This document shows, in pieces, positions 4,693 to 30,262 of a stretch of 64,000 nucleotides of DNA; within the stretch, counting starts at the first letter, position 1; every line of letters begins with the position of its first letter. This DNA comes from Octopus sinensis (taxonomy: Eukaryota), in the NCBI RefSeq assembly GCF_006345805.1, contig NC_043002.1, positions 83,948,001-84,012,000 on the forward strand. The letters are read 5' to 3'. Below the pieces are notes generated by a model. That model was not told where the DNA came from, ran no database searches, and saw only the letters and a program-made list of their open reading frames with translations. A program made the translations under genes and the position numbers.

Positions 4693-7600
4693 GTAAATAT
4701 TAAAGTATATTTTTTTTTTGCCAAATTGTACATTTATCCCTTTGTATAGTGGCCCTTCTTGTTGATGTTAACTCCCTCTCAACTGTATGTTATCACTCTT
4801 ATAAACTGGTTCTAATTGTAATAACTAGTAAGTGGTAAATATAGTGATAAATTAAATTAAATTATCTTTTTACATTTTTAATCCATACTGGTATGGACTG
4901 AATTGAATTATCTCAGTTTGTGCTTGTTTTTATTCAGAGTTATTATCCTCTTAGATGGACTGAGGAAACCACATCTCTCTCATACATTTTAAGTTTGGCA
5001 TGATTTCTATGGCTGGATGCCCTTCCTAATCCAACCACTTTACAGAGTGTAGTGAGTGCATTTTATCATAGCATTAGCACCAGAGAAATTGTCATGCCTT
5101 TATCAAGTCTAAGAGTTCTCTTGAATCTATGTCTCCACTTATTTACCAATCACTTTACAGAGTGTACTGGATGCATTTTATTGTGGCACCAGCCCTTGTG
5201 AGGTTACCCTGTACCTTGCAATGGAAAACATTCTGTCACTACTCTACAATGTCACCATCAGTACACAGCAATGTGACCAATAGAGTGAGTAGTCGCAGGG
5301 CCGGATTAAGACCCATAAAGGTCCTAAGCACATTAAAGATTTTGGCTCCCCCATATATATGTCAGTCAATATATAAAACAATAATAGCCATAAAATATAT
5401 TTTTATTTTTTAAAATGAGAAAAAACTAACAGTAAGATGGAAAATAATGTTTATTTTTGTATATTTCCACTTTATTTATATTTGAAAGGTTTTCACCTTT
5501 TTTTTAAATTGCAAAGTCTTTGATCAGATCCTCGCTATGAACACTTTGAAATTATATTTCCGATCATATAAACCACTTCAAAACTACCCTAGGTTACTGT
5601 GCCTGTATAAACAATATAATCAAACAAAATAGCTAATTAACTTTAAATATCTTCTTTTTTGCATCTTTTTATTTGTCTGAAAGACTGACTAAAAGATAGC
5701 TATTTGACAATACTAAATGTTATTGTTATTTACTCCCAGACAAAATGGTCCAGAAGCACACATTATTACTGCTAAAGAGGTTAAAGATAAATGTCCAGAA
5801 ATCCGTCATGAAGATCTCGAGGTAACTAATTCTTTCTTTGAGTTGGTTCTTATTCAAAGTTATTGTCCTCTTAGATAGGTCAGGAGACTATGTCTTTCTC
5901 ATGTTTTTTTTAATTTTCATTTTGTTTTGTTTTGTTTTTAAAGTTTGATATGGTTTCTATTTCTGGATGCCTTTCCTAACGCTGACCAAATTTTTAAAAT
6001 ATCTATTGTTGCTACTATCAGCACCACAAATAGGATAAGGATCATCATCAACTTATCCATATTTTGAGATGATTGGAAGGATTTACATTTTGCAAACCCA
6101 TATCCTTGTATACTTTCACCCTTAGATTCTTCTATGCATGTCACCATGTTTTCTAAGCTAGGATCCTAACAACTACTCTTGTAAATATGAACAATTGTCA
6201 CAACATGGGACAAATTGCCTTGCAACATTCAGCTGTTACTATTGGGTTGTCTGGAAAGTTCATGCCAATTTTTAAAGGAAAGAAAAAAGTCAATGAATAC
6301 ATGCCATAACATTTTTAATCAACCAAATATGAACCATTGTTTTGCACAATGCGTCTCCATCTTTCCTTTAACTTGAAAATACCATCTTCCCAGAATTGAA
6401 GTGGTTTCATGGCAAAGAATTCATCAAGGTATCTTTTTACATCATCCAAGGAATTGAAATTTTTACCATTAAGAGACCTGAATAAGTGGAAATCCCAAGG
6501 AACAATATCTGGTGAATATGGAGGGTGGGGTAACACATCCCAGCCAAGCTGCATCAATTTTTGTCTGGTTCCCAAAGCATCAAGTGCCGAAAATGAACTT
6601 TTTTATCTTCCGGACTTTCTTATCTTCCATTTTAAAGGGTTACAGAATTAACACAGGTTATAGAAACATAAACCTTCTTCCACAAAAAGATAGCTTAAAC
6701 TGTGCTCTAAATGGAGGTGTAGTCAAATCCTATTTTATGGACTCAACCATGTTCTAAAATAAGTCGAAAGGTAAGCTACTATAAATCAGCACAAATTTTC
6801 CGGACAACCCAATATTTACATTCTCTGCATTCAAAGTTTGCCAAGGTCAACTCCACCTTTAATCCCTTCAGGATTGATAAGATAAAGTAACTTGCTAAGT
6901 GCAATTTAATGTTCCTATAAGTGAACCCTAGATGTGGGTAAATTTATGATAGAAGTCTAAGATACCAAGTGATCTATTTTGGCCTAAAATAACTTTGTTC
7001 TAACAAATCATGGTACTTTATATACAATGATCCTCATATATTACAACTGTCTCATCTTAAAGTATCATTCATTGCTGTTAAATGGTTATTTTCTCTGCTA
7101 GTTTTCACTAGTCCTTTTGCTAATTTCATTCAATCATTTCTGTATTCATGAATTTCCCTAATAATTATTTTCTCACTTTATAGCTAAATTTTCCACCTCC
7201 CCTGTCTGTTTGTCACTTTCATTCTTTCTGAAGATAGACACACATACACAGACACACACATATATATTATCATCACCATCCCACCCATGCTAGCATGGAA
7301 GGCAGACATTAAACAACGATGATGATGATATGATGATGATGATCATCATCATCGTTTAATGTCTGCCTTCCATGCTGACATGGGTTGGATATATATACAT
7401 ATATATAATATATATATACATAAATGTATTTATGTATGTATGTACACATACACGCACATGCACACACATATAAAAGATAATTTTTCTCTTTCTCTCTTTC
7501 AGGGTGCTTTATGGGTACCTGGTGATGGTGTTGTTAATCCTACTGACCTTCTCATGGTCTATGCTAAGCTAGCAAAAGAAAAAGGTGAGTCATTTCAAGA

Positions 7601-10600
7601 ATTCTTTACCGCTTTGACACTTTTGTAGATGCACAGGCATGGCTGTGTGGTTAAGAAGCTGACTTCCCAACCATGTGCTTTTGGCATATACGGTTTTTTT
7701 TTTTTCTTATCTTTCAAAGAGAAGTCAGTACCCATGACACTTTATAGGGCCTACAAGAATGGTGCAAGAGGAATGTTAGCATGCCGGGTGAAATGCTTTG
7801 TGGTATTTCATCCGCCACTGTGTTCTGAGCTCAAATTCTGCCGAGGTTGACTTTGCCTTTCATCCTTTCAGGGTTGATAAATTAAGTACCAGTGGCGCAC
7901 TGGGGTCGATGTAATCAACTTAATCCGTTTTTCTGTCCTTGTTTGTCTCCTCTGTGTTTAGCCCCTTGTGGGTAATAAAGAAATAAGAGTGGTGCAAGAG
8001 GTTTGATCCAGTTACTTGTTATAAAATGAGGTTCACAAAAGGTACCCAAAGTACTGCACAATGCTTTCAGTCTACATTTCACATATGTCGTAGCTTAATT
8101 AATGCTCAGAATGCAAAAAGCTTCAGCAAATATGCAGAAGCATCTGGGATGAGTTTTTTTTTTAGTTCTACTCAGCCACCATCCTGGATTGCTGCTTTTT
8201 TATCAACAGTGAAAGGATGAAAGGTACAGTTGGCTTCAGTGGGATTTGAACTCAGAACAAATAGAATCAAGACAAATATAGTAAAGCATTCTGATGTAAT
8301 CTCCAGGGATACAGGCATCCAGCAACAGGACCTCCGCAATGCTATGATGGACTGTGAAGTCTGGCGTAGCATGGTAAATTCCATTGCCTCGACCACGGCC
8401 GAACAATGATGATGATGATGTGGGTGGATACACATGTGTCTGTGTTTCCTTGCACAATATTTTAATTTAAAAACAAGAATGGCATGGCTCTGTGGTTAAG
8501 GGGCTTGCTTTGCAGTCATGTGGTCTTGGGTTCAGTTCCACTGTGTGACTTCTTAGCCAAGTGTCTTCTGCTACAGTCCTAGATCAGGTAATGCATTTAG
8601 AGTGAATTTGGGAGCTGGAAACTGTGTGAAAGCTTGTTATATAATGTGTGTGTGTGTGTCTTTGTGGTTGTTCCCCCTTCAACACTTAATAATGGATGTT
8701 TATTTGTTTACATCCTCGTGACTTAGTGGTTCGGCAAAAAACTCCAATAGAAAAAGTACCAGAGTTAAAATTAAGTCTGACTCCAAAGAATGAAACAAGT
8801 AAAAAACTAAAAAAAAAGATGAATAAAAAAATAATCTATTCCTCTTCACTCTAAATTGAATTGTATGTATGCGTACAAGTATGTGCATGTATATATGCAT
8901 GTGTATGTGTGCTTGTTTGCATATATGTGCATGTACAAGGTGTAATGGGTAAATTGTTGCCATTTTATATTTTTAATTTAAAGCATGTGGTTTGTTTGTT
9001 TTTTTATTTTGTTAACTACACTGTATGGTAGAGTCAGTTGGGCAGTGTCTGTAAGAAAAACAGCACCCATGACACAATTCATTCTGCCAGAAATTTGGAA
9101 ACGGCATGCTGTCACACCAGAAGCTCCAATATGAACATTTCAGAGTGTTTGGGTGTTAATCTGAGGACAGTGCAGAGGATTTGGATACCTAAAAATCAAA
9201 CATCCAGTCAACATCATGGTGTTTCGAATGTTCACTAGTGATGGCAACATTCTACTTCCATTCATCTTCCCACACGGCCTCAGACTCAAGACACAGGCCT
9301 ACATCAAGTGCCTGGAGGAGGTAGTGCTGCCCTGGGTCAAGAGGGTGACTGCTGGAAGATCCTATGTCTGGCAACAGGACTCTGCACCATGCCACACAAG
9401 CAGGAGAACCCAGTCATGGCTGTCAGACAATTTCTGTGACCACATCACCCCTAATCTGGCCACTTAACTCCCCAGACTGCAACCCCCTTCATTATTATGT
9501 GTGGGGCACAGTTGAGCAAGAAACCAACAAAACTCCTTGTAACACCAAAGATGAACTGAAGGCAAGGATTATGGCAGCATTCACCAACTTAAACAAGGAG
9601 ACCATCCAGAAGAGTAGCAGGAGATTCCAAAGTCATCTGGAAGCCATGGTTGAAACCAATGGCGATTTTATTGAATAAATTTACTCTTTAGTCTTTCAAG
9701 ATATTTTTATATAATTTTGGAAAATATATCTGTCAAAATGAGTTGTCAGTGTAATTTTCATTTTTGCGTAATTTATATGACAGTTTATTCACCACAACCT
9801 GTATATCTATGTGTGGAATTTGAAAAACACATCCAGCCCATGCTAACACAGAAAAATCTATGAAAAAGTTTTAAAGTTTTCATTTTGATACAAAGAAACA
9901 TAAGTGACATCATCTTTAAATTTGTAAATGTTTTCTGTATAGGGGAGTCCAGACATGAAAACTGAAAACTGAAAGAAGCCTGTCACATGTGTGACACCAT
10001 TCAAAGGCTAAAACAATGCAAAGCGCAATGCCACCAGCAATGTATAACAACATCTGATCATTGGGTCAATACTGTGATAGATATATATATATGTGAATAA
10101 ATATATGTGTGTGTGTGTGTGTTTAAACACATATCTATGCCACATCTAGAACCTGCACTCAATCAGTTCTATGATTTAAATTGGTTTTGGTACCTACATA
10201 TCTGCAGTATCCCCCAAACATATAATACCTACAGGATCCTTCTACTTCACTGTGAACTTTATGTTATTGTACCTAGCCATTTCTGGCATCCTACATGTTG
10301 ATGTGCCTAGATTCCATAGAATATTATAACTATATATAATAACCAGCCCATTTAAAAAGTACCTTTGAATTGTTGGTTGACACACTATGCTTGAGGAAAC
10401 TTATTGAGTCAAATAAAATCAAAAATCAAAATCAATATCACAATCAGAATCTCAATCAAATGGAAATTGTAGTTGTTGCCGATGCCAGTGCCACCTGACT
10501 GGGCTCCTATGCTGGTGGCATGCAATAAGCCCTATTCATGCATGGGTCATTGCTAGTGTCGCCTGACTGGCTCCCTGTTCAAGTGACATATAAAAAGTAC

Positions 10601-11495
10601 CATCTGAACGTGGTCGATGCCAGCCTTCCCCCAACCACCACCATGCCCCAACTGGCTCCTGTACTGGTGGCATGTAAAAAGCACCATCCAAATGTGGCTG
10701 ATGCCAGTGCCACCTGACTGGCTCCCGTGCTGGTGGCACATAAAAAGCACCCACTACACTCTTGGAATGGTTGATGTTAGGAAGGACATCTGATTCAGAT
10801 CAGATTGGAGCCTGGCACAGCCTCCTGGTTGCCAGTCCCCACTCAAACCATCCAACCAATGGCAGCATGGAAAACAGACGTTAAACAATGATGATGATGA
10901 TGATACCTAGTTATTTTTACCAAAATCTAATAACAAAGTTCTCAAATTTAAAATATGTTGTTTTTGTTTCAAAATGTAATTAAACTCTTATTATTTGCCT
11001 CCATAGGTGTTAAAATTTTTGAAGGTATCCAGGTTTTCCAAATCCCAACAGAAAACCTCAAAGTATCAACTGTGTTAACAAGCCATGGCAAAATCCGGTG
11101 TGAATATTTCGTCAATTGTGCAGGAATGGTGAGTTAAGACGAATTAAGTATAAGTATTCTTGCACATTTCCATTCACGTGACAAACCATTTTGTTTTGTT
11201 CTTTTTTTTTGGGGGGGGGGGGGGGGTTTCCAGGTAACTATTTCATTTCATACATTTCATATGTGATCCAGGAGTTCACTTTGCAATCATATGGGTCTGG
11301 GATTTAGTCCTACTGCATGGTGCTTTGAGCAAGTGTTTTCTACTACAGCTTCTGACTGATCGATGTCATGTGAGTTGATTTGTTAGACAGAAACTGAAAG
11401 ATGCTCATCTATATATCATCATCATTATCATCATCGTTTAGCGTCCGTTCTCCATGCTAAGCATGGGTTGGACGGTTCGACCGAGTATCTGGGAA

Positions 11496-11527
<32 letters not shown>

Positions 11528-12697
11528 GTATATAAATATATATTGGTAAAAACGGTAAGATAACAAAAGAAAGAAAGAGACCTCAATATATGTAACGGTC
11601 TTTTTTCACAGCGTTTTTCAGATGGCCAGATAACCGAATAGATGGTGTTGTGGATTTCCACCTAGGCATCCGAAACTCAAAGTTTTATCTTGGCTATTGA
11701 ATAATTGTCACATATTATTTTACAGATATATAAATGATCGTTGGCCCCTATACGCAATTTTTTTTCTCTCCTTGTTTCTTTTCTGTGTATCTTTCTGTCG
11801 AAGAGCATAGGCTCGAAACGTAAAAGACTTTTTCTATTTCTATTCCTAATACATTGTTTGTTTGTACTCCACCTGCCTTTGTCTTTTGTTTATTTTCGTA
11901 AACCTTCCCGTTATATATATAGATATATATATTGGCTGCTGTGCTCGTGGTATGCAATAAGCACCATGCATGTGTGGATCATTGCTAATGCTGCCATATT
12001 GGCTCCTCGTGCCAGTGCCACATAAAAAGCACCATTCGAACGTGGTCGATGCCAGCCACCCTACCCCGACTGGCTCCTGTGCCAGTAGCATGTAAAAAGT
12101 ACCTTCCAAACGTGGCTGATGCCAGTGCCATCTGACTGGCTCCTGCAGTAGCACGTAAAAAGCACCTACTACACTCTCAGAGTGGTTGGTGTTAGGAAGG
12201 GAATCCAGCTGTTGAAACACTACCAGATCAGATTGGAGCCTGGTGCAACCTCCTGGCTTGCCAGTCCCCAGTCAAACCGTCCAACCCATGCCAGCATGGA
12301 AACAAACATTACACGATGATGAGGATGATGATGATTCAGACAGTGCATATTCAAGAGAAAAAACAGACACAGTTTACCAGCTGATGATCAGAAATGAGAA
12401 ACTCTGAGTAGTGGAAATTGGAGCCTTTCAATTATAATGTACTAACAGAGATACCTGGCATTGCTCAGGGTTACAAGGACAATAGTTTTTAATTGTTTTA
12501 ATTGTTTCGGTCATGTGACTGCAGCCATGCTGGTGCACTGCTTTTAGCCGAAAAGATCAACCTCAGGATTTATTCTTTGTAAGCCAAGTTTTTATCTGTC
12601 GATGTGTTTTGCCAAACGGCTAAGTTATGGTGACATAAACTCAGCAGCATCGGTTGTCAAGCGATGGTGGGGGTACAGACACACACACACACTCTCA

Positions 12698-12746
<49 letters not shown>

Positions 12747-15700
12747 ATGATGATATATATATATATATGATGATGATGATGATATCATCATCATCATCAT
12801 CGTTTAACGTCCGTTTTCCATGCTAGCATGGGTTGGACGGTTCGACCGGGGTCTGGGAAGCCGGGGGCTGCACCAGGCTTCAGTCTGATCTGGCAGAGTT
12901 TCTACAGCTGGATGTCCTTCCTAACGCCAACCACTCCGCGAGTGTAGTGGGTGCTTTTTACGTGCCACCTGCACAGGTGCCAGGGGGGGTCCGGCTGCGG
13001 CCACGATCGGTTGGTGCTTTTAACGTGCCACCGGCATGGAAGCCAGCCAAGGTGGCGCTGGCATCGGCCACGTTCGGATGATGCTTTTTATGTGCCACCG
13101 GCACTGGAGCCAATCAAGGCAGTGCTGGCATCGGCTACGTTCGGATGGTACCGACAGAGATGAAAGAGGGTACCGATAGAGATCAAAGAGGCTGCCGACG
13201 GAGATCAATAAGGGTGCCGACAGAGATCAAAGAGGGTACCGACAGAGATCAAAGAGGGTGCCGACAGAGATCAAAGAGGGTGCCGACAGAGATCAAAGAG
13301 GGTGCCGACTGAGATCAAAGAGGGTACCGACAGAGATCAAAGAGGGTGCCGACAGAGGTTAAAGAAGGTGCAGACAGAGATCAAAGGGAGTGCCGACAGA
13401 GATCAAAGAGGGTGCCGACAGAGATCAAAGAGGGTGCCGACAGAGATCAAAGAGGGTGCAGACAGAGATCAAAGAGGGTGCCGACTGAGATCAAAGAGGG
13501 TGCCGACAGAGATCAAAGGGGGTGCCGACAGGGATCAAAGAGGGTGCCGACAGAGATCAAAGAGGGTGCCGACAGAGATCAAAGAGGGTGCCGACAGAGA
13601 TCAAAGAGGGCGCCGACGGAGATCAAAGGGGGTACCGACGGAGATCAAAGAGGGTGCCGACAGAGATCAAAGATGGTGCCGACAGATCAAAGAGGGTGCC
13701 GACAGAGATCAAAGAGTGTACCGACAGAGATCAAAGAGTGTGCCGAGAGAGATCAAAGAGGGTGCCGACAGAGATTAAAGAGGGTGCAGACAGAGATCAA
13801 AGAGGATGCCGACATAGATAAAAGAGGGTGCCGACAGAGATCAAAGAGGCTGCCGACGGAGATCAATAAGGGTGCCGACAGAGATCAAAGAGGGTACCGA
13901 CAGAGATCAAAGAGGGTGCCGACAGAGATCAAAGAGGGTGCCGACAGAGATCAAAGAGGGTGCCGACTGAGATCAAAGAGGGTACCGACAGAGATCAAAG
14001 AGGGTGCCGACAGAGGTTAAAGAAGGTGCAGACAGATCAAAGGGAGTACCGACAGAGATCAAAGAGGGTGCCGACATAGATCAAAGAGGGTGCCGACAGA
14101 TCAAAGAGGGTGCCGACAGAGATCAAAGAGTGTACCGACAGAGATCAAAGAGGGTGCCGACAGAGATCAAAGGGGGTGCCGACAGGGATCAAAGAGGGTG
14201 CCGACAGAGATCAAAGAGGGTGCCGACAGAGATCAAAGAGGGTGCCGACAGAGATCAAAGAGAGTGCCGATAGAGATCAAAGGGGGTACTGACGGAGATC
14301 AAAGAGGGTGCCGACGGAGATCAATAATAGTGCCGACAGAGATCAAAGAGAGTGCCGACAGAGATTAAAGAGGGTGCAGACAGAGATCAAAGAGGGTGCC
14401 GACTGAGATCAAAGAGGGTACCGACAGATCAAAGGGGGTACCGACGGAGATCAAAGAGGGTGCCGACAGAGATGAAAGATGGTGCCGACAGAGATGAAAG
14501 AGGGTGCCGACAGAGATCAAAGAGGGTGCCGACAGAGATCAAAGAGTGTACCGACATAGATCAAAGAGGGTGCCGACAGAGATCAAAATCGAAGGGCGTG
14601 AAGCCGCCGCACGCCTAGGACCCGCGCGCGGCGGCTGCTACGATGGCCCGTACGCGTCGGTCTCAGTCTAATATTTGCGCTGCGACCAATGCGGAAGGCC
14701 GACCATATCGTCATGACTGGAAGGGACAGGCGCAGATGCGCCACCCCCAAACCGGCCGAGCGGACGCCGGCGGCGAACGACGACGACGCCGCGAAGATGT
14801 CAATGTGCAGTTTTGTGTCTTTGAAATAAAATAGTTACTGTAGTTTTTTAATGCTCTTGGGAAATGGTTTCCGGTCAATATGTGAAGGTGTAAAGACAAA
14901 TAAATGGTATGGCAGTATAAGTGATTTGATTGATTAAGTGAGAAGGTGAGTGAGTCTGTGAGAGTGAAAGAAAGAGTTGAGAGAGATAAAGGACAGAATG
15001 AAGGAATTTTAATGTGTGTGTGTGATGGAAGGAAGTGGAAGAGGGAGTGTGTGTGTGTGAAGAAGCAAAACATAAAAGAAAAAGACAATGGAAGGAGATA
15101 TGAATGAAGAAAACAAATGGATGATTGTGTAAGAAGAAAATGAAAGAGGAAAAAAGAGGGAGAGTACAGAATGCATTTGTGTGTGAAGTAGATAGAAGGA
15201 GAAACGAAGGAATAGAGAAAGGTATAAGAAGAAAGAGGGAGAGGATATAAGGGGGAGAAAAACCAGAAAAATAGGGAACAAATATAAAAAGAGAGTTCGA
15301 GAAAATAGTAAGAGAAAGGAGGAGGAAAGGAAAACAAAGAGAGGGGAGGAGAAGAAAGAAATAATTAATTTAAGAAAAGAAAGGCATAATTATTTCAGAT
15401 AGTAGGAATGAGAGAAAAGAAAAAAGTAAGAGAGGAGACAGAAAGGGGAACCAAAGGGAAGGTGAAAAAAAAAAAAAAAAAAAAGGATGAGAGCGTGAGT
15501 GAGAAAGAGGATGAAGAAGAAAGAGAGAAAAAAAAGTAGTGTAAAATGAAGATAAGTAAGTCAAAGAAACTAATTTACTTGCGATATTGTTTAATAATTC
15601 CAATAGGTGTATGAGGGGAAAATATGTTGCAATAGCTTGTCCCTTTATATTCTGAGCTTAAATTGCACCTAGGTTGACTTTATCATTTAGTATTCCTGTG

Positions 15701-18435
15701 CAGAAGTACCTGCTAAGTGCACCAAACAAACCGACTTGTCAATTAAGTCCTTCTGTGGAAACCTCAGGGGCAACAGCACAAGGGATATCTAAAGATTAAA
15801 TAGTACAAGATCGACAGGGACCATTAGCTGATAAACCTAGGATGGAAAGATGCTGTGAGGGCAGCTGGTGACTGATTGTGCTGGAATACTTTGACTTCCT
15901 CAGGCATCAGCTGATGCAAGAAAACCTAAGTTTAAGTATGTACCAGGTTGATTTAATAGAATATCCGAGGGGGTGCTGAAAAGTTCCTGGCTTTACAGAT
16001 ATCACGAAAGGCCTGGTGGAAACCCAACCTCTCAAGTTCTTTTACAGGGCTTAGAAAAACTGAAGGACCACTGCAATAAGTGTGTGAATATGAGAAGAGA
16101 ATAAAATCATAATTAACTGATCCTCGTGGATTTTCTTTTACCCAAAGCACTGTACTTCACCCCACAAAAATGTGACTATGTTTATGTAGAAAATATTATC
16201 CATGACAGAGAATAAAAATTATCACAAATTCAAGGACACATTGAATTAACTAAACTAAACCTGAACTTTAAATAAAACCTTTTGGAAGATGGTCACATAG
16301 ATTGCCAAATGATAAAGCATTATATACTTCCTCTTTTTTTTTTTTTTTGGTTTTCCCTATAATTCCAAGTTATGTTTGGAGCTATGAACATTCACAGGTA
16401 AAATTGTTAAAGGAAGTGTGTTTTTCCAGTTTGATAAATGTGTTTATCATAGTTACATAATTAAAATTATCAAACAACATGAGGGATGGGTTTCTGCAAA
16501 GCCTATCGACTTGATAGAAATGGCCAAATCTCACTCAAATTCCTCACCATACCATTTAAAAGGTGAAAGACACTATGAATCATATAGTTCAAGATAGACT
16601 ATGTCTAAAATAGAAGAAAAAGACAGAATGGTTACTGTTGGAATGTTTTAGATTATGTAGAGGACTGCATGCACAAATATGATAAGAAATAAAAAAAAAA
16701 GGTAACAACAATTAGGATTGTTCCTGCACCCACTGATACACGTTTTAGCCAAGAAAAATGAAAGGAAGTTTAATATTCTTCAATCTTTACAAAATCAATT
16801 AACTTAACCAGAGAACGTTAGATTAAAAAAAAAATTAGCTCGAAATACATTTTGTAAAATTGTGAGATACACAAAAGAGAATACTCTTCACAGAATTTAG
16901 TAAAGTTCAGTGATCTCTCACACACACACACACACACACAGAAGTGTATTACCTGTCAAAAATGATGCAGTTTACTTCTGCCTCCTTTCAGTAATTTCTA
17001 ATGCTTTTGTTTCAAGCTTTGCTCCCATTTTCTTCTTATGTTTCATTTTATCTTCTTTTAGTCATTCTTTTTAACTTCATTCATTCTCCTAATTTTCAAA
17101 CTTATATGATTACATCTCTATCTAAATATATCTGTATTTTCTAAATTTTTTTCACTCAATCAAAATCTGCCTCAACACCTTTTCTCCCCAACCCTTCCAT
17201 ACCATACAGGAATTCCTTTTTCTATCTCTATTGTTCTTTCTATATCCTAGTTATTTTATCCCATTACTTCTCTAATTCCCCATCAGTACTGTAGAGCTTT
17301 ATCTTTCTTCACTTCTTTCTACTTCTCTCACCCTTTCTTCTACTCCTCCTCTATTTTATGTCTGCTACTCTGAATATTGTATGACTGCTGACAAATTTTC
17401 TATTACTTTTCATCCCACGCTGTCAATCCCACTTTTATATTAAATCTTTCTTCATATTACTTTTCATTTCTCTCTCTCTCTCTTCACATCATTCAGCACA
17501 GTTACTACTTTCTCCTATCAGCATGTAAAGGAGAGACAAATGACCCAACAAGAAAATGGATATATCACGTTGCATTATATGTATAAAGATACCACTAGCA
17601 TATTGATGGATGGTATTCTTCTGTCATTACTCGTGCCAATGTTCCTCCAAATGAGCAAGACAGCTTTCGAAAACATCACTTACCAGTTCCATATATATAT
17701 TTGCATACATATATATATATAATATATATATATATATGCATATATGTATGCATATATGTATGCATGCATACACACACATATATATATATATACATATATA
17801 GACATATATATATATAAATATACATATATATATATATATATACATATATACATATATATTTAATCCCAACATAAAAACACAAAGAGAAAACACAACAATG
17901 CGAGGACGTAGAACAAATATAGTATTATTAGATGCTCAGGAAGGAAGGGAAGAAGGAGGGTTTTACAATTCGAGCTGAGCTCTTCATCAGAAACATAGGA
18001 AAAGGAAAGATCCAGAGAAGGGAAAACAGAGGAAAAAAAAATCGCTAACAGTACACACACGGTCACATTTTGTATATATATATATATATATATATCATCA
18101 TCATCATCATCATCATCATCGTTTAACGTCTGTTCTCCATGCTAGCATGGGTTGGACGGTTCGACCGGGGATCTGGGAAGCCAGAAGGCTGCACCAGGCT
18201 CCAGTCTTATCTGGCAGTGTTTCTACAGCTGGATGCCCTTCCTAACGCCAACCACTCCGTGGTATACATATATATAAATATACACATGTATATACATATA
18301 TGTATACATATATATAGATATATATACATACATATATATACATATATATAGATACATAAATATACATATATATAGATAGATAGATAGATAGATATATACA
18401 TACATATATATACATATATATATAGCTACATAACT

Positions 18436-18495
<60 letters not shown>

Positions 18496-18712
18496 TATAT
18501 ATATAAACTGGGTTCTGTGCTGGTGGCACATAAAAAGCACCCACTACAATCACGGAGTGGTTGGCGTTAGGAAGGGCATCCAGCTCTAGAAACACTGCCG
18601 GATCAGACTGGAGCCTGGTGCAGTCTCCTGGCTTCCCAGACCCCAGTCGGACTGTCCAACCCATGTTAGCACGGAAAACAGACGTTAAACAATGATGATG
18701 ATGATATGTATG

Positions 18713-18779
<67 letters not shown>

Positions 18780-21493
18780 CAATGTATACATATAGATATA
18801 TGTACATATTAATCTATATAAGTTAACGTAATATAATCTCTAAAAGTTGATGGACCACCTATTGATCCCTTCCATTTTCTTATTGCTCTGCATTTAAATA
18901 TATACACGCGTGCACACACACACACACACACATGCATACACACATACATTCTCTCTTGAAGGAATTTGTTGTGGTTAGACCTAGGGATGGTCGAATCTAA
19001 AAATGTCCAGTGACTCCATTAGGAATTGGGAGCCCAAGTTAACACTTCAGCAGGTGTAATTTAGCACACAACATTTTTGTGAAGGAATTTGCTTTGCATT
19101 TACATAGAGTTTGGTTCTTAGCATGTAAAGTGTTTTTTACCATAGCTTCAGATCAAACAAAGCTTTGAGAGTGAAATTTAATTGGCAGAAAATTTGAGTG
19201 GAAATCTGAGTGTGAGACCATTTTCATGTTCTTGCATAACAGATTCAGTCTGTTGCTTGGTTCAACACCATCATCTAGCCCTTAGAAACCTTTAGCAAAA
19301 TTCCCTCTGTTGCAAGCATCCAGGTCAGTTCACTGATTTAAGGATAGCAATTTCTCTTCCTGCCATAAGTCACAGAGGCCCTGAAGAAGTCCATGAGCAC
19401 TATTCTTCCCCTGATTAAACAATGAAAAATTTTAAACATGATTACAATGGAAAAAGAGAGTCACAAAAATACACTTTGATGTATTCTAAACATATTACTG
19501 AATTCATTGCCAATTATATATCTACTTTACGGAGATGTACTCGATCTGAGATCGTGTGCTGGAACGAAAACTATTGCAGCGTGGAAGGTGTTTGTAAGCC
19601 ATTTAAGAAACACACAAAAGCCGTTCGATTCACTTCAACATTTAAGTTTAATTTGTCAAAATATTTTCGTCGCTTTAAGACCATGACCTGTTCACTGCAG
19701 CACGGATTTTTGTCAGTGAACAGGTTGCGGATTTTAGTGACGAAAATATTTTGACAAATTAAACTTAAATGTTGAAGTGAATCGAACGGCTTTTGTGTGT
19801 TTCTTAAATGGCTTACAAACACCTTCCACGCTGCAATTGTATATATCTACTTTTATCTCTCTAATATGTTGTCTCCATAGCCTTCCCGTTACTCCTTAGT
19901 TATATGTATCTTCCTCACCAACCATTAGCCAGTAAATAATAGATATTTGTGGGAAGCTATTTTTTTAGGTCAACATAAATGAGGTAGAGCTGTTTGTTTA
20001 TTGTCATGTGCTATCTGTTATGCTTTATTCATTTTGTATCCTTCTAATAGGTTGCCAATTGACTATGTAAACTAGTTTATGAGAGGTTATAAGGTCAGCA
20101 TGGTATGAGATTCCCACATTATAATAGAGATTTTATTGTTTCACTTTTGACATGTAATACTGAAATAGTGTAAGAGATAAGAGATTGCTCCTGGCTTGCA
20201 TTAGGCAAGAAGTTGAAAATTTTTTTGGCCCATGAAACTGCATGTACCCTAACTAAGGTATGTGTAAAATTTGAATGAAATTGGTTGGGTAGTTCTCGAG
20301 TTTTAGGGATTCACACAGAGAGACAGACACACATTCTCAGTTTCATATATTAAGAAGATTGTATGAATCAGACAGAATTTATTGGGTCACATTTCTTCTG
20401 CTGCTGGGTGCTCTTCCTTATTGCCTGTGTCCAAGCAAGGTGATTTTCCTACACATGCACATACATGCATGCAGACACATGCATACACATGTGCGCACAT
20501 GCACACACACAAAATAATGGGCCTCATTCAGTTTCTGTCTATCAAATCCACTCACATGGTTTTGGTCAGCCCAAAGATATAGAACGTACTTACCCAATGT
20601 GCCACACAGTGGGACTGAACCAAAGACCACATGCTTGGGAAGCAAGCATCTTAATTATAGAACTATGTCTGCACCTAGCTATACATTAATAAGATGGTGA
20701 TGATGATATGATATAATTTAATAATAATAATAATAATAATATTAATAATAATAAGTTGTGGGGGAGCATCATAGCCACGTGTTGAGAGGGATTCTTTGGG
20801 GTTTGAATAATTTACCTCTGGAAACATGGGTGTTTCATTCAACATCTTAAACAACCCTTATTCAGGGACCTTTTGAGCAGGATGAGTTACTCAACCAGAA
20901 GAAAATTCTAACTGGGCCCCACCTGCAAGTTCATATGCTGTTTGTCTTGATATGAGATCACCATGTCGTGCACATATGGTTGTGATGCATGTGCCTAGTG
21001 TACCCTTATCAGATGGGTAGTCATGATGGGTATACTGGGCTTCATATATTCATACCCCAGTGTCACTTTGATGGCATGCACTGCTCTCTCACTCAATAAT
21101 AATAATAATAATAAACTGCATACAAAAAAAAACAGAGCACAAGAATCTTTGCTGGAGAAGCAAATTTTAATTTTTATATGTATTATTTTCCAGTGGTCCC
21201 GAGAAATTGGTAAAAGGACCATTCCCCGTGTACGTGTACCTGTACATGCTTGTGAACATTTCTACATTGTTACTAAACCATTTGGTAATATTGATCCTAT
21301 GATGCCAGGTATGTACCAATCACTTGTAACTGTGCTTGTTATTCTGAAACTATTCAGGCAGAGTATTTCTATAATTACATCTTTATATGTGTACCACAGG
21401 CTTCTTTCAGCTTCCATCTATACTCACCAGGCTTTGATTGGCCCAGGGCTACAGCAGAAGACACTGCCAAAATGTGTAGAAGCTCAATGTATA

Positions 21494-29124: not shown

Positions 29125-30262
29125 ACATACACATTCATACAGGGTGCAATGGGTAAATTGTCGCCATTTTATATTTTTAATTTCGCGCATGTGTAGTTGA
29201 TTTTGTTGACTACACAGTATAGTAGGGTCAGATGAGCACCATGACACAATTCACACTGCCAGAAATTTGGAAACAACATGCTGTACTGCTTGGCATTTGC
29301 ATTGGAAGCTTCAATTTGAACATTTCAGATTGTTTGGGTGTCGATCTGGGGACATGTACCGAGAGTGATAAAAATCAAACATCCAGTCAACATCATGGTG
29401 TTTGAAGTGATCAATTGTGATGGCGACATTATGCTTCCATTCATCTTCCCTCACGCCATCAGACTCAACACAGAGGCCTACATCAAGTGCCTGGAGGAGG
29501 TAGTGCTGCTCTGGGTCAAGAGGGTGGCTGCTGGAACACCCTATGTCTGGCAACGAGACTCTGCACCATACCACACAAGCAGGAGAACCCACTCATGGCT
29601 GAGTGAAAAAGATGTGGAGCCTATATAGGTAAAAATATTCAGGTTAGTGTGGACATTAGACCTATAGACAATATTTCTAATTAGGCACTTATTGTTAAGC
29701 GGTACTAATTCAAAGAAATATCTGAAAATAGGCACATGCTGCATGAGATAGTATAAGAAAATAAAGCAATCCTTACTTGGAGGTCAAAACATGGAAAGGG
29801 GTTGTTTGTAATGTCATATGGTAAAAGGGATGCAGAGCCACTGCTCTAAAGGATTCTGCATTAGTTCCAGTGTGCTACCACATCATCCCTAACATTTGGA
29901 CATCCCAGGCTGCAGCCCCCTTCATTATTATGTGTGGGGCACAGTTGAGCAAGAAACCAACAAAACTCCTTGTAACACCAAAGATGAACTGACGGCAAGG
30001 ATTATGGCAACATTCAGCAACTTAAACAAGGAGACCGTCCAGAAGAGTTGCAGTAGATTCTGAAGTCATCTGGAAGCCATGGTTGAAGCTAATGGCGATT
30101 TTATTAAATAAATTTACTCTTTAGTATTTCAAGATATTTTTATGTAATTTTGGTGAATATATCTGTTAGAATGAGATGTGAGTGTTATTTTCATTTTTGC
30201 ATGATTTAGATAACAGTTTATTCACTGCACTCTCTACATACATACATATTTATATATATATA

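What the first reader, a model, noticed from the sequence alone, without database searches (positions are those of the whole stretch)
19529..19839. Fold-back insertion with a hammerhead-like ribozyme motif (G3-C8 swapped core) on each strand
Seen: a 311-bp insert with a 14-bp target duplication and about 125-bp inverted arms. The right arm reads stem I TTTGTCA/TGACAAA (7 bp), core GTGAACA, one extra G, stem II GTTGC/GTGAC, GAAA, and a self-complementary AAAATATTTT stem III. The left arm carries the same motif on the - strand (stem II GTCAT/GCGAC, stem I broken). Established: the hammerhead core is CUGANGA, C3 and G8 form a tertiary Watson-Crick pair, and Penelope-like elements carry minimal type I hammerheads with palindromic stem III that can act as dimers. 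GUGAACA differs from CUGANGA only at positions 3 and 8, as a compensatory swap. Inference: this is a Penelope-like family with a non-canonical ribozyme that CUGA-based searches would miss. The intact copy is in sense orientation in a PDPR intron; the predicted cleavage triplet UUU is weak.
Basis: partly seen in the sequence, partly recalled or inferred. Interest (0 to 1): 0.75.

Follow-up and report, generated by a model that had tools for sequence, protein, structure and literature searches.

The report
Octopus Penelope hammerhead with flipped pair
This 311-base insert is a head-to-head double copy of the front end of a Penelope-type jumping gene, likely in an octopus, whose family carries a hammerhead-shaped RNA with two paired core letters swapped (G-C instead of C-G); the family motif likely can cut RNA but this is untested, and this decayed copy is predicted not to cut.

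Summary
The 311-bp insert has a 14-bp duplication, and related genomes show the empty site. [quoted passage not shown] About 4,400 motif copies exist; 90 of the first 100 are G3-C8 and none C3-G8. Homologous leaders carry C3-G8 in sister families and U3-A8 in a 46%-identical relative, with the same frame. So it is a natural G3-C8 minimal hammerhead variant; cleavage is untested. Corrections: this copy is not intact (two stem II decays; the hairpin costs about 49 kcal/mol); U17 is usual in relatives; the two arms carry different subfamily loops, so it is not a simple fold-back. Copies pile up at a likely cap site upstream of the motif (353 matches, 78 of 100 with an extra G), not at the cut site (at most 22), so templates were likely uncut. 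The scan noted this variant before on other octopus DNA (7 notes).

The parts
19515..19528 (.). left target-site duplication, 14 bp
   Evidence: exact repeat; single copy at the empty site
19529..19697 (-). left arm: inverted pLTR unit with the Penelope 'tail' (about 19529-19569, 16-bp deletion at 19542/19543), 5'-truncated inside stem I; loop II of subfamily type b
   Evidence: alignment of 30 copies
19600..19602 (-). start codon of the element's ORF in the left arm
   Evidence: ORF continues from this ATG in longer copy L262
19652..19697 (-). decayed G3-C8 hammerhead motif (G3 19695, C8 19690); stem I 2 bp only, stem II with one mismatch; predicted inactive
19696..19839 (+). right arm: pLTR unit from 3 nt behind the inferred RNA start to the first (tail-less) 3' end; loop II of subfamily type a
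19709..19758 (+). minimal type I hammerhead motif, G3-C8 core, extra G after A9, 6-nt palindromic stem III, predicted cut 19751/19752; two C-to-T changes in stem II (19726, 19738); predicted inactive here
19808..19839 (+). first 10 codons of the element's ORF
19840..19853 (.). right target-site duplication, 14 bp
11192..21172 (+). host PDPR intron (left border approximate) that holds the insert
   Evidence: tblastn of P0121, named PDPR-like, on the window

Best explanation
The insert is a recent head-to-head double insertion of the leader and ORF start of a Penelope-like retrotransposon whose family carries a minimal hammerhead motif with a G3-C8 core pair, likely a working (dimer- or protein-assisted) ribozyme in source elements but predicted inactive in this copy. 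Shown: insertion with 14-bp duplication, linkage to the RT/endonuclease ORF, motif 57 nt ahead of the start codon, G3-C8 as the family state, homology to C3-G8 and U3-A8 leaders. Inferred: an internal promoter makes a capped RNA that starts 23 nt before G3; the element's enzyme cuts both DNA strands 14 bp apart in AT-rich DNA and primes reverse transcription from each end at two internal sites in the ORF start (one arm without, one with the tail), copying uncut RNA to its cap and joining the two cDNAs at their 5' ends; here the two templates came from different subfamilies. Inferred: in source elements the hammerhead cuts slowly and late, separating tandem units or removing the cap ahead of the ORF, and U17 avoids a blocking G3-C17 pair. 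Odds: Penelope fragment 0.97; motif descended from a hammerhead 0.93; family motif cleaves under some condition 0.6; this copy inactive 0.9.
For: Empty site and duplication. Walk from the unit to the ORF end and from the unit into the ORF start (L262, 40% to P0011 residues 4-555, 88% to the L127 RT). ORF has DKSG, YVDD, a CX3CxxC linker and VYQIxC..YIGET, 277 homologs. G3-C8 in 90 of the first 100 of 4,425 matches with positions 3, 7, 8, 9 free and in 35 of 39 copies found by upstream DNA or ORF, not by the motif. Sister family B has C3-G8 at the same place with compensatory changes in stems I, II, III (92.9% of cells paired, covariation 0.41 against 0.22 shuffled). With 3 and 8 left free, 20 sense hits behind related ORFs in 75 metagenome loci are 19 C-G and 1 U-A, none unpaired. 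Subfamily differences inside the motif fall only at N7 and loop II. A typical unit folds stems I and II. Engineered C3G/G8C partly restores cleavage in an anole Penelope hammerhead, which needs protein and is not needed for insertion (PMC11167929). 5' ends: 353 matches with a non-native base before the start, 78 of the first 100 a G with varied bases before it, against at most 22 new junctions at the cut site.
Against: No cleavage was measured. Copies within the family are young (91-98% alike), so their shared core mostly reflects descent. The alignment holds few independent events (5 family A rows, 4 family B rows). G3-C8 rests on one lineage; given two changes, a pairing outcome has about 1 in 3 odds by chance. 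Sister family B often has C9, so the clade tolerates departures that may mean weak or lost activity. The double mutant restores activity only partly. The predicted fold pairs G3 with U17, and the 10-nt palindrome gives a stronger dimer duplex (-3.8) than the 6-nt stem III (-0.2), one that would tie up A13, A14 and U17. No pile-up of 5' ends at the cut site (no neighbouring-position control). Pfam finds no domain in the L127 ORF; its identity rests on motifs, homologs and a weak match to a GIY-YIG-positive element.
Confidence: 0.62

Rival explanations
1. The motif is a catalytically dead or nearly dead descendant of a hammerhead, kept as a folded leader (protein-binding, translation or promoter element) or carried along in one successful lineage; G3-C8 keeps the fold, not the chemistry.
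For: Insertion templates look uncut; hammerhead mutants do not affect insertion in the anole element; minimal Penelope hammerheads cleave poorly (PMC4209133); family B often has C9; competing G3-U17 and 10-bp dimer pairings.
Against: U4, G5, A6, G12-A15.1 and U16.1 are invariant across 12 aligned leaders of mean 51% column identity; the 3-8 pair is a feature of the active fold and is Watson-Crick in all 20 sense hits of relatives.
Confidence: 0.3
2. The palindrome is itself a mobile unit (a MITE-like or hairpin derivative copied whole), or arose by fold-back of one cDNA with later gene conversion of one loop.
For: Several copies share the same centre junction, and L002 shares the window's mixed loops at another site (by eye); most hairpins have the same loop type in both arms (17 of 19, random 0.37), as fold-back or a single template predicts.
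Against: Ends are asymmetric (tail on one arm), duplications are 12-14 bp and of varied sequence (10 of 29 parsed; many others unreadable in TA repeats), arm lengths run from tens to about 490 bp and centres vary; the centre junction has a 2-nt microhomology.
Confidence: 0.12
3. The 5' junction hot spot is a 3' splice site, and short copies come from spliced RNA whose first exon ends in G-A-G.
For: The native upstream DNA reads like a branch point, pyrimidine tract and CAG; in D. virilis Penelope an intron ends at helix I.
Against: Bases before the extra G vary freely in 100 listed junctions, so no shared exon is seen; no matching joint in contigs of four guessed-RNA runs (weak).
Confidence: 0.15
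4. The insert matters as a host element: a long intronic hairpin in PDPR pre-mRNA used for A-to-I editing, small RNA production or self-cleavage.
For: About 125-bp near-perfect duplex on the sense strand; heavy editing in cephalopods is recalled, not tested.
Against: Absent from three related genomes; about 1.3 kb from the nearest mapped exon; the hammerhead fold costs 48.9 kcal/mol inside the hairpin; the Rfam microRNA matches are all below gathering score.
Confidence: 0.04

Closest known systems
Minimal type I hammerheads of metazoan Penelope-like elements (Cervera and de la Pena 2014, PMC4209133)
   Same: In the pLTR; extra base between 9 and 10.1; G10.1-C11.1; palindromic 15.2-16.2 region; mostly in truncated copies; opposite-strand pairs 100-700 bp apart; a natural 3-8 covariation (U3-A8 in Schistosoma).
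   Different: G3-C8 is not mentioned in the text I read (parts 1-2 of 4; supplements not seen). Stem I here is 7 bp rather than 4-5.
PAc, Poseidon element of the green anole (Frangieh et al. 2024, PMC11167929)
   Same: Hammerhead at the pLTR-ORF junction; two 3' ends defining a tail inside the ORF start; AT-rich targets; uncut RNA as insertion template; engineered C3G/G8C partly active.
   Different: PAc is C3-G8 in nature and its ORF starts inside the hammerhead; here the ATG lies 57 nt behind the cut site and the nuclease has a Cys linker that Penelope/Poseidon lack.
Nematis and Neptune clades of EN+ Penelope-like elements (Craig et al. 2021, PMC8557442)
   Same: RT followed by a CX2-5CxxC linker and C-terminal GIY-YIG-type domain; inverted 5'-truncated copies, tail, TA-repeat targets. 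The short linker and nuclease layout resemble the Nematis rows of their Fig. S2 by eye.
   Different: DKSG in place of DKG, an insertion between RT motifs A and B, about 50-nt tail; only 21% identical to a Neptune-like element of the same genome. Clade not tested by a tree.
Natural hammerhead core variants (Perreault et al. 2011, PMC3088659)
   Same: Natural covariation at the 3-8 pair.
   Different: Section 8 reports U3-A8 only; figures and supplements not seen.

Membership tests
EN+ Penelope-like element | single ORF with RT and C-terminal GIY-YIG-type endonuclease linked to the repeat | tested here: met
   by motifs and homologs, Pfam gives no hit for L127
EN+ Penelope-like element | pLTR at both ends; tandem and inverted 5'-truncated copies | tested here: met
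   unit behind the ORF (L118, L116, L112), ahead of it (L262), inverted (L127)
EN+ Penelope-like element | optional tail at one end, inside the ORF start | tested here: met
EN+ Penelope-like element | variable target-site duplication in AT-rich DNA | tested here: met
   14 bp with empty site; 12-14 bp in 10 of 29 parsed copies
Nematis clade | RT phylogeny and short Cys linker | tested here: inconclusive
   linker and nuclease resemble Nematis by eye; no tree with reference elements
Minimal type I hammerhead | core U4 G5 A6, A9, G12 A13 A14 A15.1, U16.1, H17 | tested here: met
Minimal type I hammerhead | canonical C3 and G8 | tested here: not met
   G3 and C8
Minimal type I hammerhead | Watson-Crick pair between 3 and 8 | tested here: met
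   G-C here, C-G and U-A in relatives
Minimal type I hammerhead | stems I and II form | tested here: met
   typical family unit, most pair probabilities 0.9 or more; not met for the window copy (0.01 and 0)
Minimal type I hammerhead | palindromic stem III for dimers | tested here: inconclusive
   6-nt palindrome present, 4-nt palindromic loop in 20 of 20 relatives, but its duplex is weak and a 10-nt register competes
Minimal type I hammerhead | site-specific self-cleavage | not testable with these tools
   only contigs were offered, which show no RNA ends
Rfam hammerhead families | match to a covariance model | tested here: not met
   no hammerhead family among 7 matches up to E 10 in 19000-20400
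Non-LTR retrozyme | tandem non-coding monomers with canonical hammerheads, circular RNA | tested here: not met
   dispersed, inverted copies that run into a coding ORF; definition from abstracts listed; circular RNA not tested

The most novel reading that the evidence does not exclude
A whole octopus Penelope lineage has run for several subfamilies on a naturally flipped G3-C8, U17 hammerhead that still cleaves under dimer or protein control. It would act as a decapping switch 57 nt ahead of the ORF: uncut capped RNA is the insertion template, cut RNA has another fate such as translation or decay. That completes a natural three-way series (C-G, U-A, G-C) at the catalytic tertiary pair and implies that CUGA-based surveys miss whole hammerhead families.
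Probability: 0.35. Interest if true: 0.68.

Novelty: new variant of a known kind. Interest (0 to 1): 0.48.

Why it matters
The 3-8 pair positions the general acid of the hammerhead (established). Its flipped form is known from mutagenesis, but seven literature searches showed me no natural G3-C8 family; Lunse et al. 2017, the likeliest place for one, was not held. A lineage with thousands of copies and C3-G8 sisters in one genome gives a matched natural test of whether Penelope hammerheads are kept for catalysis, an open question. The 5'-end counts add genomic support for the in vitro finding that uncut RNA is what gets inserted. This particular intronic copy is probably neutral.

Tried and rejected
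Rfam scan: no hammerhead; microRNA hits are sub-threshold hairpin artefacts. The Neptune-like ORF beside one copy (L033:7189-9474) is not the partner: none of 30 of its loci holds the family core. Pfam on the partner ORF: no domain. RNA evidence: no RNA holder listed on record; four guessed-RNA runs are contigs, cover ORF and leader, show no ends and no intron joint at the CAG; not used as evidence on expression or cleavage. A pattern meant to give the 3-8 state of two rarer sister families (L180 U-U, L181 U-G, one copy each) found nothing, so their consensus is unknown. phmmer of the 30-residue ORF start against 120 homologs gave no significant hit; the ORF start was then shown directly. A Fisher test of subfamily differences (0 of 41 constrained, 4 of 9 free positions, p 0.0005) is post hoc, loop changes may be one event and one subfamily had 3 copies, so I give it little weight. 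An ATG right at the 5' junction was rejected as ORF start (stops within about 20 codons, read from the sequence). Lunse et al. 2017 could not be read; supplements of PMC4209133, PMC3088659 and PMC11167929 were not seen and may hold G3-C8 examples.

Full report
Observation. The insert is as described. It spans 19529-19839 between two exact 14-bp repeats, with arms of 105 nt at 98% plus a 12-nt inner arm and a fold of -211.6 kcal/mol, z -26. Contigs of three public DNA-like runs, coded as three organisms from two studies, join 19514 to 19840 with 14 letters fitting both sides. This is the empty site, so the insertion and the duplication are real and recent; those genomes differ from the window at about 9-10 of 274 flanking bases plus a 25-base insertion. 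Exons of a PDPR homolog (P0121, 90% over the last exon) map on the plus strand on both sides. Named protein hits point to an octopus (inference).

Family. A DNA search of the 2.72-Gb own genome gave 2,627 candidates, 40 scored, 91-98% alike on their best strand. An exact 29-mer occurs 1,118 times and a pattern with positions 3, 7, 8, 9 free 4,425 times, reversed controls 0; these count motifs, not elements. Of the first 100 listed, 90 are G3-C8, 10 carry other states and none is C3-G8 (my count). Among 39 copies found through upstream DNA or the ORF rather than the motif, 35 are G3-C8, 36 keep GAAA and 39 have U17. The window's T19726 and T19738 are C in most copies.

Parent element. Longer copies extend upstream through 0.9-1.4 kb of repeat-rich DNA into an ORF end. 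L127 holds 722 open codons with DKSG, YVDD, a CX3CxxC linker and a GIY-YIG-type VYQIxC..YIGET end, with an inverted copy of the unit at its 5' side. Pfam finds nothing; it has 277 homologs and 21% identity to a GIY-YIG-positive element. In L262 the unit runs straight into the ORF: motif, ATG 57 nt behind the predicted cut, then protein 40% identical to P0011 residues 4-555 and 88% to the L127 RT. So each arm is the leader plus the first codons of the ORF (ATG at 19808 on plus, 19602 on minus). The right arm stops at the short 3' end and the left carries the roughly 50-nt tail, as described for Penelope elements (PMC8557442, passages; PMC11167929, parts 1-2 of 4). The nuclease resembles Nematis rows by eye (supplement passages); no tree was made.

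Is it a hammerhead? A sister family B, 56% identical in protein, has at the same place a motif with the same spacing and a C3-G8 core, often with C9. A genome pattern leaving 3 and 8 free and excluding A7 gave 3,792 matches against 11 in controls; the first 100 are 79 C-G, 10 G-C and 11 others, and all 10 with C8 have G3 (my count). Twelve leaders from five groups align beyond the motif; 92.9% of cells pair, five pairs change on both sides, covariation 0.41 against 0.22 shuffled, but the rows are related and stand for few events. In 75 metagenome loci of related ORFs, a descriptor with 3, 7, 8, 9 free found 20 sense hits (16 distinct) and 1 antisense; the sense hits are 19 C-G and 1 U-A, the latter in a 46%-identical relative, all with a 4-nt palindrome before UH, and 15 of 20 with U17 (many come from similarly named, distant records). 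Subfamily differences inside the motif fall at N7 and loop II only. The extra base after A9, the palindrome, opposite-strand pairs and U3-A8 are published Penelope traits (PMC4209133, parts 1-2 of 4). Rfam misses it.

Would it cut? Untested. For: engineered C3G/G8C partly restores activity, also in the anole Penelope hammerhead, which needs protein; a typical unit folds stems I and II. A G3-C8 variant was reported less active with C17 than with G17 (PMC3884650, passage, data not shown there), so U17 may be the fitting partner (inference). Against: rescue is partial; G3 is predicted to pair with U17; the 10-nt palindrome outcompetes the 6-nt stem III in a dimer; minimal Penelope hammerheads are weak. 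The window copy is predicted dead: pair probabilities 0.01 in the right arm alone, 0 in the insert, where the hammerhead fold costs 48.9 kcal/mol; the minus copy lacks stem I.

How the insert formed. Short copies begin at one spot: 17 of 33 non-native junctions in hand read GAG where the genome has CAG (some rows are related). Genome-wide, 353 matches have a non-native base there, 78 of the first 100 a G with varied bases before it. The best reading is an RNA start at the A of TCAG with the cap copied as G (cap copying by retroelement RTs is recalled; an internal promoter is shown for D. virilis Penelope, PMC2377424, passages). At the predicted cut site there are 39 matches, of which 11 are point mutants and 6 arm recombinants, leaving at most 22 (no neighbour control; both patterns need exact matches and exclude the native base). 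So inserted RNA was mostly uncut, as in the anole system. That enzyme cuts and extends both strands from two internal start sites, which would give this layout: antisense arm left, sense arm right, 5' ends joined. Most hairpins have one loop type in both arms (17 of 19 typed among the 30 best hits; random 0.37), but the window copy has two, pointing to two templates or later conversion, not plain fold-back.

Novelty. Searches and passages of PMC3088659 (section 8), PMC6765202, PMC6155905, PMC13725137 and preprint 10.64898/2026.07.22.740005 showed natural U3-A8 and engineered G3-C8 but no natural G3-C8. Lunse et al. 2017 was seen only as a title, and unseen supplements may bear on this. PMC13725137 reports that hammerhead cleavage ahead of viral ORFs can drive translation (passages), a lead for the leader's role. 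Earlier notes of this scan describe a G3-C8 octopus Penelope hammerhead seven times; I read them after reaching my reading, and they are not independent support.

Verdict. A real, ordinary Penelope fragment carrying a real, unusual ribozyme variant: new variant of a known kind, interest 0.48.

Noticed in passing
L033:7189-9474 and L051-L080: A separate, very young Neptune-like Penelope family (1,249 candidates, 40 scored at 99%; GIY-YIG Pfam hit); it lacks the G3-C8 core and no canonical hammerhead was seen by eye in four 3' ends.
   Followed up: partly
L136, L137 (family B): Sister family with open ORFs of 1,044 and 1,120 codons; many of its hammerheads read C9 instead of A9, with C17 or U17. 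The 46%-identical relative L187 has U3-A8 with C9.
   Followed up: partly
L180:1027-1062, L181:1072-1105, L177-L179: Three rarer related leaders; single copies read U3-U8 and U3-G8, and one group has a disturbed stem I junction. Consensus states unknown (empty).
   Followed up: partly
L113:5021-6499: RT-like ORF with a CxCX5C motif ahead of a GIY-YIG-like end, as described for the Hydra clade; not tested.
   Followed up: no
L273-L277, L281, L286: Tandem arrays of short units that stop about 90 codons into the ORF and restart at the inferred cap site, a possible third reverse-transcription start.
   Followed up: no
window 20115-20300: Another high-copy repeat just right of the insert, and a 25-base stretch at 20090 present in three related genomes but not in the window.
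   Followed up: no
window 13212-14618: Long tandem repeat open in all three plus frames.
   Followed up: no
window 6315-6602, 9165-9678, 29320-29628: Fragments that read like Tc1/mariner transposases (label recalled, not tested).
   Followed up: no
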